Virus genome (UHGV): UHGV-0242533
Length of the DNA stretch: 64,000 bases
Reading direction: 5' to 3' (one strand)
DNA from: a virus
Position 1 is the stretch's first letter. Each line of letters opens with the position of its first letter. Under the pieces are notes generated by a model. That model saw only the letters and a list, made by a program, of their open reading frames with translations, had not been told where the DNA came from and made no database searches. A program made the translations under genes and the position numbers. Below are positions 9,336 through 10,058 of the stretch, piece after piece.

Positions 9336-10058
9336 ATGAAAGCATTTGCATTGTCAGCTATTCTAGTTTTATCTGCCATTAGTGCCCCATCCTTTGCTCA
9401 TTCTGACAAATGCTCACACTCTAAACAGTGTGAAGTCCAGCAGGGGCCGAAAGGTGATAAAGGAGAACAGGGTATTCAAGGCGAACAAGGTCCGAAAGGT
9501 GACAAGGGTGATCGCGGAGAGCAGGGCTTAAAAGGTGATACTGGATCGGCTGGCATCAATGGTACTAATGGCATTGATGGTAAAGATGGCATTGATGGTA
9601 AAGATGGCGCTCAAGGTGAAAAAGGTGATTCTGGTGCAGATGGTAAGAAAGGCGAAACTGGCCTAACTGGTGCAGCAGGTTTGAATGGCGTTGACGGATT
9701 AAATGGCAAAAATGGTAAAGATGCAGATATGTCTGCCGTTAATGCTAACGCCAAATCTATCAAAGCTCTGGAACAATCCACCAACAAACGTTTTGCTTCT
9801 TTGCAAAAACAAGTAGACCGTAACCGTGATCATGCCTCTGCTGGTATTTCTGGCGTGGCTGCAATGGCTAACATCCCGCAAGTAAGTCAAGGATCTGCTT
9901 TCTCTGTTGGTGCTGGGGTAGGTGCTTACGATGGTGAATCTGCTCTTGCTATTGGTGTTAGTGCTCGTTTCAATGAAAACGTAGTAACTAAAGCATCAGT
10001 GGCAATGACTTCAGAGAGTGACGCTGTTCTGGGCGCTGGTGTAAGTTACGAGTGGTAA
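9336..10058 (+). CDS. collagen-repeat protein with signal peptide and YadA-like C-terminal anchor (trimeric autotransporter-like)
   Basis: MKAFALSAILVLSAISAPSFA signal peptide; about 30 Gly-X-Y triplets; C-terminal domain ending GAGVSYEW typical of YadA-type beta-barrel anchors. Confidence 0.75.
   Translation: MKAFALSAILVLSAISAPSFAHSDKCSHSKQCEVQQGPKGDKGEQGIQGEQGPKGDKGDRGEQGLKGDTGSAGINGTNGIDGKDGIDGKDGAQGEKGDSGADGKKGETGLTGAAGLNGVDGLNGKNGKDADMSAVNANAKSIKALEQSTNKRFASLQKQVDRNRDHASAGISGVAAMANIPQVSQGSAFSVGAGVGAYDGESALAIGVSARFNENVVTKASVAMTSESDAVLGAGVSYEW

What the first reader, a model, noticed from the sequence alone, without database searches (positions are those of the whole stretch)
9336..10058. 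Early-region collagen-repeat protein with YadA-type outer-membrane anchor
Signal peptide, about 30 Gly-X-Y triplets and a C-terminus ending GAGVSYEW give the architecture of a trimeric autotransporter adhesin. It is encoded among early host-takeover genes, not in the virion block, which suggests surface remodelling of the infected cell (superinfection exclusion, receptor masking or aggregation).
Basis: partly seen in the sequence, partly recalled or inferred. Interest (0 to 1): 0.65.

Follow-up and report, generated by a model that had tools for sequence, protein, structure and literature searches.

The report
Phage-encoded collagen-stalk trimeric autotransporter
A lytic E. coli phage of the phiEco32 group carries an optional early-region gene for a small outer-membrane protein with a collagen-like stalk; the architecture is real and already annotated in relatives, but what it does for the phage has never been tested.

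Summary
ORF 9336..10058 (+), 240 aa, has a Sec-type signal peptide, a 15-residue two-cysteine cap and 31 uninterrupted Gly-X-Y triplets. These are followed by a coiled-coil neck and a full-length YadA-type anchor ending in YEW. Pfam gives YadA_anchor 1.7e-19 and Collagen 2.5e-17. A model of the C-terminal half matches only the Hia, AtaA and YadA anchors.

The window is a phiEco32-like Kuravirus. The gene is the orthologue of phiEco32 gene 119, annotated "agglutinating adhesin" in GenBank record EU330206. It lies in the rightward arm downstream of the sigma-70 promoter cluster, far from the structural arm.

New here: it is a terminator-bracketed accessory cassette. It is present in 15 of 99 related records, absent in SU10, and replaced by an HTH gene that keeps a yadA 3' remnant. 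The stalk varies from 12 to 37 triplets through an 18-bp repeat, and there are two alternative two-cysteine caps. Signal-peptide YadA-anchor genes recur in many unrelated virulent phages.

It is almost certainly displayed on the infected cell and is not a virion part. Shielding versus aggregation cannot be decided in silico. The gene is already known in kind, and its biological role is open. Interest is moderate to low.

The parts
9256..9282 (+). Upstream intrinsic-terminator-like hairpin 1 (AGCCGC..GCGGCT + TTTTT), part of the conserved backbone
   Evidence: Found by the terminator scan. Invariant in all six aligned kuraviruses, including the empty-slot SU10. Together with hairpin 2 it folds at -28 kcal/mol, z -4.8.
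9286..9312 (+). Upstream terminator-like hairpin 2 (GCCTCC..GGAGGC + TTTTTT)
   Evidence: In phiEco32, KM01, SU10, 172-1 and SR02 a different, non-homologous GC hairpin plus T-run (GCCCCGGC..GCTGGGGC TTTTTT) sits at the same place. This argues that the hairpin is kept for function.
9313..9335 (+). Short conserved leader (TCTAYTRTATAGGAA) with Shine-Dalgarno AGGA at 9323-9326
   Evidence: Conserved in front of both cargo types, yadA and HTH, and missing in the empty SU10 slot. It differs from the gp36 promoter element tAATGTAtA at 1-2 positions, so it is not a convincing promoter.
9336..9398 (+). Signal peptide, aa 1-21 (MKAFALSAILVLSAISAPSFA)
   Evidence: Hydrophobicity and the S-x-A motif. 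Head type B and four other phage YadA-anchor proteins have equivalent N-termini.
9399..9443 (+). Distal cap, aa 22-36 (HSDKCSHSKQCEVQQ), holding the only two cysteines (CX5C)
   Evidence: The alternative cap in phiEco32, KM01 and Bas90 has CX8C, and FSL SP-058 has CX5C. Each protein has exactly two Cys, both N-terminal to the collagen run.
9444..9722 (+). Collagen-like stalk: 31 uninterrupted Gly-X-Y triplets (aa 37-129); about 27 nm if triple-helical
   Evidence: 48% of the X/Y residues are charged, there are 8 K/R-G-D/E junctions and only 2 Pro.
9551..9608 (+). 18-bp tandem repeat (encodes GIDGKD) that sets the stalk length
   Evidence: Tandem Repeats Finder: period 18, 3.2 copies. Relatives carry 12, 22, 31, 34 or 37 triplets, differing mainly in copies of this unit. 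The repeat breaks assemblies: there is an N-run in ShigP1.
9723..9875 (+). Neck or coiled-coil segment (aa 130-180); predicted single long helix at aa 133-178
   Evidence: AlphaFold2 model, pLDDT about 70-85. It aligns to the in-barrel helix of YadA-M and Hia. A 3-4 hydrophobic spacing is readable in the sequence.
9876..10058 (+). YadA-type membrane anchor (aa 181-240; four beta-strands at 189-198, 201-211, 216-225, 230-238; terminal Y-E-W) plus the stop codon
   Evidence: Pfam PF03895 over 60/60 profile positions. Gap-free alignment to YadA-M 2LME residues 16-105, E 6.9e-9. Fold hits are only Hia, AtaA and YadA.
10066..10092 (+). Downstream terminator-like hairpin (CCTCTCCC GAAA GGGAGGGG + GTGTTTCT), the 3' end of the cassette
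   Evidence: -18.4 kcal/mol, z -3.3. Shared by the yadA and HTH cassettes and absent from the empty SU10 slot.

Best explanation
The gene encodes a minimal type Vc (trimeric) autotransporter made by the infected cell. It is not a virion protein.

Molecular mechanism, inferred from well-established trimeric-autotransporter biology. The precursor is exported by Sec and its signal peptide is cut after SFA. Three chains each contribute four beta-strands to a 12-stranded barrel that the host BAM machinery inserts into the E. coli outer membrane. The three neck helices (aa ~133-178) run through the pore. The passenger emerges C-terminus first, so the anchored coiled coil registers the three chains. 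The 31 Gly-X-Y triplets then zip into a roughly 27-nm collagen-like rod outside the cell. The two cysteines of the 15-residue distal cap probably lock the far end with disulfides.

Genetically, it is a dispensable, moron-like cassette of leader, gene and terminator. It sits just after two backbone terminators in the sigma-70-driven early arm of a phiEco32-like Kuravirus.

Biological role, inferred and not shown. A lawn of charged rods about as tall as the O-antigen layer changes what can reach or stick to the infected cell during the long latent period. I favour steric shielding at about 35%. This would mean fewer further adsorptions to the infected cell, or to its debris, by phages that must reach O-antigen or LPS, including the phage's own progeny. 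Cell-cell or surface adhesion comes next at about 30%. The stated confidence refers to 'surface-displayed autotransporter that remodels the infected cell envelope', not to the shielding sub-hypothesis alone.
For: Architecture:
- Pfam YadA_anchor 1.7e-19 (full length) and Collagen 2.5e-17.
- Signal-peptide features.
- Gap-free alignment to the YadA-M structure, with the same terminal Trp.
- A model with one helix plus four strands, pLDDT 78. Its only significant PDB matches are the Hia, AtaA and YadA anchors, E 5.5e-8 to 2.3e-4, TM up to 0.80.

Not structural:
- The gene is on the + strand among small ORFs downstream of six near-consensus sigma-70 promoters. Structural genes are on the - strand from 46 kb.
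- SU10 lacks the gene entirely; its slot is 241 nt. Yet its virion has been solved and is built from other proteins (PMC9509320).
- Only 15 of 99 backbone-positive records carry the anchor.

Functional gene:
- The C-terminal 143 codons are 98-100% identical among carriers, with 6 synonymous to 2 non-synonymous changes in the most divergent pair.
- All alleles are intact, with in-frame stalk-length variants.

Cassette: terminators on both sides, with clean presence, absence and replacement polymorphism.

Generality: signal-peptide YadA-anchor genes sit in non-structural regions of N4-like, jumbo, T4-like and Ackermannviridae phages.

Relevance of rod height: kuraviruses depend on O-antigen (PMC11990801) and must bridge about 28 nm to the membrane with their nozzle (PMC9509320).

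Envelope theme: the early arm also encodes two paralogous lipoproteins and another signal-peptide protein.
Against: - I have no expression, localisation or phenotype data for this gene in any phage. The primary phiEco32 proteomic and macroarray papers were not available.
- Three terminator-like hairpins separate the gene from the nearest strong promoter, and no promoter was found in the 24-nt leader. Expression might therefore be weak or differently timed.
- The stalk has only 2 prolines in 62 X/Y positions, so a triple helix stable at 37 C is not assured.
- 84 of 99 relatives do without the gene, so any benefit is conditional.
- Every characterised trimeric autotransporter is an adhesin, which favours adhesion over shielding. 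Two distinct caps suggest that tip-specific recognition matters.
Confidence: 0.75

Rival explanations
1. Adhesion or aggregation factor. The displayed rod makes infected cells stick to neighbouring bacteria, to each other, or to mucus or matrix. The burst then happens next to fresh hosts, or the infected cell is not washed out.
For: All characterised trimeric autotransporters are adhesins, and many cause autoaggregation (established knowledge; review PMC6605025 listed). Collagen repeats of the VtaA2 autotransporter contribute to collagen binding (PMC6755704). Two alternative caps and a larger head in FSL SP-058 look like diversifying recognition tips. Larger phage-encoded versions of 379-577 aa have long passengers.
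Against: The cap is only 15-27 residues, with no recognisable adhesin head or neck domain; Pfam finds only Collagen and the anchor. The rod is highly charged and zwitterionic, which does not obviously favour stickiness. No phenotype data exist.
Confidence: 0.3
2. Virion fibre. This would be a collagen-like tail or head fibre, as the PHROG and RefSeq labels 'tail protein' imply.
For: Best PHROG hits are labelled tail protein, adhesin or tail fiber. RefSeq calls the phiEco32 and Bas90 genes 'tail protein'. Collagen-like repeats are common in phage tail fibres.
Against: A cleavable signal peptide and a membrane beta-barrel anchor are incompatible with cytoplasmic virion assembly. The gene is in the early arm, on the opposite strand from and 36 kb away from the structural genes. 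It is absent from 84 of 99 relatives, including SU10, whose virion is structurally complete. The 'tail' labels are explained by the collagen repeats alone: the hits to tail-fibre PHROGs cover aa 30-150.
Confidence: 0.03
3. Selectively near-neutral passenger. A bacterial short YadA-like gene was picked up and is hitch-hiking in a recombination-prone slot, with no meaningful role in infection.
For: Patchy distribution, 15 of 99 records. It has been lost or replaced in several lineages. Short chromosomal YadA-anchor proteins of 160-200 aa exist in Enterobacterales at 56-62% identity.
Against: All carrier alleles sampled are intact, with in-frame length variation, mostly synonymous change and near-identity across phages whose flanks differ by 2-9%. 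Similar genes were acquired independently by many virulent phage lineages. An N4-like genus keeps a collagen-stalk version at 66% identity.
Confidence: 0.12
4. Virulence-type conversion factor acting on the animal host, for example serum resistance, immunoglobulin binding or tissue adhesion. This is how genome papers have labelled it ('virulence AMG').
For: Prophage-encoded Eib autotransporters bind immunoglobulin, and their anchors are detectably related at 34% identity. Genome papers speculate about pathogenicity (PMC3728262; PMC10654107).
Against: The phage is strictly lytic, and no lysogeny module was seen in the window. An infected cell dies within about an hour, so benefit to the bacterium is hard to see. 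There is no Ig-binding or head region. The gene has no DNA match in 5,426 complete E. coli genomes, so it is not circulating as a prophage gene.
Confidence: 0.05

Closest known systems
phiEco32 gene 119 product ('agglutinating adhesin', ABY52920.1) and its 'YadA-like protein' orthologues in EcP-vB and EcM-vB1
   Same: Same gene in the same slot. The DNA around it is 98.7-98.8% identical and the C-terminal 143 codons are 99.5-100% identical.
   Different: The window allele has cap type A and 31 triplets. phiEco32 has cap type B (CX8C) and 22 triplets, and EcP-vB has cap A and 37. The GenBank start of phi32_119 is set at an upstream TTG that reads through the terminators. The ATG that gives an N-terminal signal peptide is the credible start.
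YadA (Yersinia), Hia (Haemophilus), AtaA (Acinetobacter): type Vc trimeric autotransporter adhesins
   Same: Signal peptide, coiled-coil neck, four-strand anchor and terminal aromatic residue. Sequence and fold match their solved anchors.
   Different: There is no globular head domain. The stalk is a collagen-like Gly-X-Y rod, not a coiled coil. The mature protein is very small, 219 aa. It is encoded by a lytic phage.
VtaA trimeric autotransporters of Glaesserella (Haemophilus) parasuis
   Same: Collagen triple-helix repeats in the passenger of a YadA-anchor autotransporter (PMC6755704).
   Different: VtaAs are large (about 1,200 aa) chromosomal virulence factors, with head and other repeats around the collagen segment. 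No close sequence relationship was tested here.
Eib immunoglobulin-binding autotransporters of lambdoid prophages (P-EibA, P-EibD)
   Same: Phage-borne trimeric autotransporters. The anchor is detectably homologous, 34% identity, E 3e-5.
   Different: Eibs are expressed from temperate prophages as lysogenic-conversion genes, have coiled-coil stalks with Ig-binding regions, and have no collagen.
Early-expressed envelope proteins of virulent phages that block re-adsorption (T5 Llp, T1/phi80 Cor lipoproteins)
   Same: Works-like analogy only: an early gene and an outer-membrane location. They protect the infected cell and the progeny from the receptor. This rests on my own knowledge of the Llp and Cor literature and was not checked here.
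   Different: No homology. Llp and Cor are small lipoproteins that bind one protein receptor, FhuA. Here a rod-shaped autotransporter would act sterically on glycan receptors, if at all.
Morons of lambdoid phages
   Same: A discrete extra gene between conserved neighbours, with a terminator-like hairpin immediately downstream and presence/absence polymorphism.
   Different: No promoter of its own was detected. The host genome is a virulent phage, so there is no prophage state in which to express it.

Membership tests
Type Vc trimeric autotransporter adhesin (TAA) | C-terminal YadA-like membrane anchor (PF03895) above the curated threshold, at the extreme C-terminus | tested here: met
   70 bits against a cut-off of 22.7, profile positions 1-60 of 60, aa 181-240.
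Type Vc trimeric autotransporter adhesin (TAA) | Protomer topology: one helix entering the pore followed by four beta-strands. Fold equals that of solved TAA anchors. | tested here: met
   AlphaFold2 model: helix aa 133-178 plus four strands, pLDDT 78. Foldseek top five hits are all Hia, AtaA or YadA anchors.
Type Vc trimeric autotransporter adhesin (TAA) | N-terminal Sec signal peptide | tested here: met
   K2, hydrophobic core at 3-16, SFA|H cleavage motif. Heuristic only; no dedicated predictor was available.
Type Vc trimeric autotransporter adhesin (TAA) | C-terminal aromatic residue (beta-signal for BAM) | tested here: met
   Ends in ...VSYEW, aligned to YadA ...NIEW and Hia ...GYQW. W116 is invariant in 11 homologues.
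Type Vc trimeric autotransporter adhesin (TAA) | Trimerisation, outer-membrane insertion and surface exposure of the passenger | not testable with these tools
   Needs expression, heat-modifiable SDS-PAGE, protease shaving or immunofluorescence.
Type Vc trimeric autotransporter adhesin (TAA) | Adhesive head domain (typical, but not obligatory) | tested here: not met
   Pfam finds only Collagen and the anchor. The region N-terminal to the collagen run is 15 residues.
Bacterial or phage collagen-like proteins | Long uninterrupted Gly-X-Y run matching PF01391 | tested here: met
   31 triplets with no interruption. PF01391 at 62.8 bits against a cut-off of 27.2.
Bacterial or phage collagen-like proteins | Formation of a stable triple helix at physiological temperature | not testable with these tools
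   48% of X/Y residues are charged and there are 8 K/R-G-D/E junctions, but only 2 Pro. Circular-dichroism melting or collagenase and trypsin resistance would be needed.
Phage tail fibre or virion protein | Encoded in the structural module and conserved across the genus | tested here: not met
   Located in the early arm on the opposite strand from the structural genes. Present in 15 of 99 records. Absent in SU10.
Phage tail fibre or virion protein | Detected in purified virions | not tested
   The phiEco32 proteomics paper is not held. SU10 proteomics is uninformative because SU10 lacks the gene.
Moron-type accessory cassette | Discrete insertion between conserved genes, with presence/absence polymorphism | tested here: met
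   Alignment A1 shows the slot filled with yadA, filled with an HTH gene, or empty, between identical flanks.
Moron-type accessory cassette | Own terminator | tested here: met
   Hairpin at 10066-10083, -18.4 kcal/mol, z -3.3. It is part of the indel segment. Its U-tract is weak.
Moron-type accessory cassette | Own promoter | tested here: inconclusive
   No sigma-70-like site in the leader. The leader has 1-2 mismatches to the gp36 element. No promoter was reported near this slot in SU10.
phiEco32 early gene class | Lies in the leftward (here + strand) cluster transcribed from sigma-70 promoters, with no gp36 promoter upstream | tested here: met
   Position relative to the promoters at 3849-6084. 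The gp36 promoters precede only genes 6, 13, 26, 40, 58 and 68 (PMC8948821). The nearest exact gp36 elements are at 36550 and beyond.
phiEco32 early gene class | Measured early transcript kinetics for this gene | not tested
   The macroarray paper is not held. Terminator-like hairpins at 7928, 9256 and 9286 lie in between.
Superinfection-exclusion or receptor-masking proteins | Reduces adsorption or DNA entry of incoming phage when expressed | not testable with these tools
   Requires adsorption and efficiency-of-plating assays.

The most novel reading that the evidence does not exclude
Virulent phages of many lineages plant a trimeric autotransporter on the cell they have just infected. In kuraviruses and Ithacavirus it is a length-tunable collagen rod capped by a disulfide knot. 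It would act as a steric 'brush' above the O-antigen that blocks later adsorption by rival phages and by the phage's own progeny. That would be a new, receptor-independent class of superinfection exclusion, with stalk length co-evolving with host O-antigen length.
Probability: 0.2. Interest if true: 0.65.

Novelty: already known. Interest (0 to 1): 0.35.

Why it matters
Outer-membrane proteins made by strictly lytic phages are rare and poorly understood. The well-studied cases (T5 Llp, Cor) control re-adsorption and progeny loss. YadA-anchor genes turn up in about 100 phage records across N4-like, jumbo, T4-like, Ackermannviridae and Kuravirus genomes. They are routinely mislabelled as 'tail protein' or flagged as 'virulence genes' in phage-therapy safety screens.

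Knowing whether they shield, aggregate or do nothing matters for three things. It affects annotation and safety assessment of therapeutic phages. It affects the design of phage cocktails, because one phage may exclude another. It also bears on how lytic phages manage the infected cell surface.

The kuravirus version is an unusually simple and tractable model: a 219-aa mature protein. Natural plus and minus phage pairs exist in the BASEL collection (Bas90 and Bas91), and so do natural stalk-length variants.

Tried and rejected
1. A gp36 (phage sigma) promoter in the leader. The element tAATGTAtA / AATGTA is matched only with 1-2 mismatches: TATTATATA here, TACTGTATA in phiEco32. One-mismatch hits occur at the chance rate in the window, 24 against 20.5 expected. 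Rejected as evidence and kept as a weak lead.
2. A sigma-70 promoter between the terminators and the ATG. None was found at the scan threshold.
3. Primary phiEco32 papers (Savalia 2008, Pavlova 2012), for virion proteomics and the gene-119 time class. They are not held in the library. Secondary descriptions were used instead.
4. Origin from E. coli chromosomes or prophages. No blastn match in 5,426 complete genomes. The nearest non-phage relatives are short YadA-anchor proteins of Enterobacter and Cedecea at about 60% identity, one of them in a plainly chromosomal context.
5. Base composition as a sign of foreign origin. The cassette is 0.45-0.48 GC against 0.37-0.46 in the flanks. Glycine codons explain this, so it is uninformative.
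6. Rfam. Nothing but the tRNA.
7. Functional link to the downstream Hydrolase_2 gene. The hydrolase is present and 98-99% conserved in phages that lack yadA, so the two are independent.
8. Full-length structure prediction. Not attempted, because a monomer model of a collagen trimer would be meaningless. Only the C-terminal half was modelled.
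Full report
**1. The observation**

ORF 9336..10058 (+) is real. Its 240-aa product reads as follows:
- MKAFALSAILVLSAISAPSFA|HSDKCSHSKQCEVQQ;
- then (Gly-X-Y)x31;
- then DMSAVNANAKSIKALEQSTNKRFASLQKQVDRNRDHASAGISGVAAMANIPQ;
- then four beta-strand segments ending in GAGVSYEW.

The 31-triplet run is uninterrupted. It is the only run of six or more triplets in any frame of the 64-kb window. Pfam reports YadA_anchor (PF03895) at E 1.7e-19, covering the whole 60-position profile at the extreme C-terminus, and Collagen (PF01391) at E 2.5e-17.

**2. What the protein is**

Without its collagen part, the C-terminal half aligns without gaps to the whole solid-state NMR structure of the YadA membrane anchor (2LME residues 16-105, E 6.9e-9). 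It also aligns to Hia, and all three end in Trp.

I built an AlphaFold2 model of aa 125-240 on an alignment of 11 homologues. Its mean pLDDT is 78. It shows one long helix (aa 133-178) followed by four strands. Its only significant matches among solved structures are the anchors of Hia, AtaA and YadA, with E from 5.5e-8 to 2.3e-4 and TM-scores up to 0.80.

The protein therefore meets every sequence-level criterion of a type Vc trimeric autotransporter. The exception is a globular head, which is not obligatory. Trimerisation and surface exposure cannot be tested in silico.

The stalk is unusual but not unprecedented. The VtaA autotransporters of Glaesserella parasuis also carry collagen repeats (PMC6755704). 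Here 48% of the X/Y residues are charged, with eight K/R-G-D/E junctions and only two prolines. If triple-helical, 93 residues give about 27 nm.

The protein's only two cysteines lie in the 15-residue segment distal to the stalk, as CX5C. The alternative cap in phiEco32, KM01 and Bas90 has CX8C, and the N4-like FSL SP-058 homologue has CX5C. I infer a disulfide cap that locks the far end of the rod. This is inference only.

**3. Where it is**

The window is a phiEco32-like Kuravirus. The best match is 98.8% identical over 1.9 kb to phage EcP-vB. The gene is the orthologue of phiEco32 gene 119, annotated "agglutinating adhesin" in GenBank record EU330206. EcP-vB and EcM-vB1 label it "YadA-like protein", and RefSeq labels it "tail protein".

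The window layout is:
- a cluster of six near-consensus sigma-70 promoter-like sites at 3849-6084 (+);
- + strand genes up to about 45 kb;
- the large structural genes on the - strand from 46 kb.

Published work states that phiEco32 early genes are transcribed from sigma-70 promoters at the start of this cluster. It also states that the six mapped promoters for the phage sigma factor gp36 precede genes 6, 13, 26, 40, 58 and 68 (PMC8948821; PMC4281155).

Terminator-like hairpins at 7928, 9256 and 9286 stand between the last strong promoter-like site (6056-6084) and the gene.

**4. It is an optional cassette**

I aligned the slot between the gp120 homologue (8732..9175) and the Hydrolase_2 gene (10169..10558) in six kuraviruses. 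All share the first terminator. All have a second terminator at the same place, but it comes in two non-homologous sequence versions. After that come a short conserved leader, the cargo and a downstream hairpin.

The cargo varies:
- yadA with cap A in the window, EcP-vB and ShigP1;
- yadA with cap B in phiEco32, KM01 and Bas90;
- nothing in SU10, where the slot is 241 nt;
- an XRE-type HTH gene in 172-1 and SR02.

The HTH gene still ends with the last ~20 nt of yadA (GGTGTAAGTTA; protein ...GDGVSYK*). So yadA was there first and was overwritten.

Across the phage collection the backbone hydrolase is found in 99 records, the yadA anchor in 15 (13 distinct phages) and the HTH gene in 6.

Stalk length is 12, 22, 31, 34 or 37 triplets in otherwise almost identical genes. 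It varies by copies of an 18-bp unit encoding GIDGKD. The shared 143 C-terminal codons are 98-100% identical. The most divergent pair shows 6 synonymous and 2 non-synonymous differences. This is weak but consistent evidence of purifying selection.

The gene is not found in 5,426 complete E. coli genomes. The nearest non-phage relatives are short chromosomal YadA-anchor proteins of Enterobacter and Cedecea at about 60% identity.

**5. Not a virion protein**

Several facts argue against the "tail protein" label:
- a cleavable signal peptide and a beta-barrel anchor;
- the early-arm position;
- absence from 84 of 99 relatives;
- SU10 lacks the gene, yet its virion has been solved and is fully built from other proteins (PMC9509320).

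The label is explained by the collagen repeats alone. I could not check the phiEco32 virion proteome directly.

**6. A recurrent theme in virulent phages**

A collagen-free query finds YadA-type anchors in 103 phage records. These include:
- N4-like Ithacavirus and Waedenswilvirus;
- ~350-kb jumbo phages such as GAP32, fHe-Yen9-04 and 7t3;
- Ackermannviridae;
- T4-like phiR1-RT, TG1 and PM2;
- Aeromonas, Erwinia and Pantoea phages;
- more distantly, the temperate P-Eib prophages.

I examined five of these proteins. All have N-terminal signal peptides and terminal aromatic residues. In four of the five loci the annotated neighbours are small accessory, tRNA or nucleotide-metabolism genes; the SKML-39 locus has too few annotated neighbours to judge. 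Only the Kuravirus and Ithacavirus versions have collagen stalks.

Genome papers have noticed these genes and called them virulence factors or auxiliary genes, without experiments (PMC3728262; PMC10654107). My literature searches found no functional study.

**7. How it most likely works**

These steps follow from established autotransporter biology. The precursor is exported by Sec. BAM assembles a 12-stranded barrel from three chains. The coiled-coil neck occupies the pore. The passenger emerges C-terminus first, so the anchored neck sets the register from which the collagen rod zips outward.

These points are inferred. The rod is stable. The cap is disulfide-locked. The gene is expressed early, giving tens of minutes for display: SU10-infected cells keep their shape for 45 min.

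The biological role is open. Kuraviruses depend on O-antigen and must bridge about 28 nm to the membrane. A dense lawn of 10-32 nm charged rods plus neck could hinder further adsorption to the infected cell or its debris; I give this about 35%. The adhesin precedent and the two alternative caps argue for cell-cell or surface adhesion; I give that about 30%. Neutral hitch-hiking gets about 12%, animal-host effects about 5% and a virion role about 3%.

**8. Verdict**

The functional claim is reasonable but untested and cannot be resolved here.

The gene is already annotated in close relatives, and the architecture has bacterial precedents. As a kind of thing it is already known.

This analysis adds the following:
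- the cassette anatomy, the census and the replacement scar;
- the stalk-length repeat and the conserved two-cysteine caps;
- a corrected start codon;
- evidence that "tail protein" is a mis-annotation.

It remains a neat, tractable open question. Natural plus and minus phage pairs such as Bas90 and Bas91 are available to answer it.

Noticed in passing
window 4463..4792 (+) and 13380..13679 (+): Two paralogous small lipoprotein-like ORFs in the early arm. They are 40% identical (E 3e-24), both match phrog_4281 (unknown function), and share the motif RPxGWCAxxVEGxC after a lipobox-like ...GC. The second is the homologue of phiEco32 gp106, 'putative phage lipoprotein'. They are candidates for envelope or exclusion functions.
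   Followed up: partly
window 3919..4395 (+): 158-aa ORF with a signal-peptide-like N-terminus (MNKANFVIGALVLTFGSMAIA...), lying inside the promoter-rich region between the sigma-70 sites at 3849 and 4399. It matches phrog_21410, function unknown.
   Followed up: partly
window 3849..6084 (+): Six sites with a perfect TTGACA -35 hexamer and 10-12 of 12 matches overall, within 2.2 kb of mostly non-coding DNA. This corresponds to the early promoter region described for phiEco32 and SU10.
   Followed up: partly
L005 (phage 172-1) 3278..3595; L008 (SR02) ~3190..3493: An XRE-type HTH gene occupies the yadA slot in six records. It keeps the yadA leader, the last ~20 nt of yadA (protein ends ...GDGVSYK) and the yadA terminator. 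This is a replacement scar showing in-slot cargo exchange.
   Followed up: yes
window 9264..9335; L001 5578..5694: GenBank annotations of phi32_119, Bas90_0117 and others start the gene at an upstream TTG. The annotated N-terminus then reads through the two terminator hairpins and buries the signal peptide. The same 'ORF' exists in the empty SU10 slot. The ATG at 9336 is the credible start.
   Followed up: yes
window 9286..9312 versus L001 ~5620..5650: The second upstream terminator exists in two unrelated sequence versions at the same position: GCCTCC..GGAGGC in the window and GCCCCGGC..GCTGGGGC in phiEco32 and others. Both have a T-run. phiEco32-type genomes also carry an extra ~70-nt segment that can form an 18-bp hairpin between the two terminators.
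   Followed up: partly
L006 (ShigP1) ~2370..2470; L003 (MN03) position 1: The collagen repeat disturbs assemblies. ShigP1 has a run of N inside the gene, which splits it into two annotated pieces. The MN03 linear record begins inside the repeat, so its gene is annotated as a 125-aa fragment.
   Followed up: partly
window 10169..10558 (+): 129-aa Hydrolase_2 (SleB-type cell-wall hydrolase, E 1.7e-7) without a signal peptide, encoded in the early arm. It is 98-99% conserved in the relatives compared and present in 99 records, independent of yadA and separate from the lysis genes.
   Followed up: partly
window 10063..10194 (+): 43-aa ORF (the homologue of phi32_118 and Bas90_0116) that overlaps the downstream terminator hairpin and the start of the hydrolase gene. 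It is probably not a real gene.
   Followed up: no
window 13283..13359 (+): Single tRNA-Arg (anticodon TCT), as in other kuraviruses.
   Followed up: no
window 41226..41325: Cluster of exact and near-exact gp36 promoter elements on both strands (TAATGTATA at 41235 - and 41307 +, plus variants at 41226 - and 41317 -). They suggest divergent middle promoters in one intergenic region.
   Followed up: no
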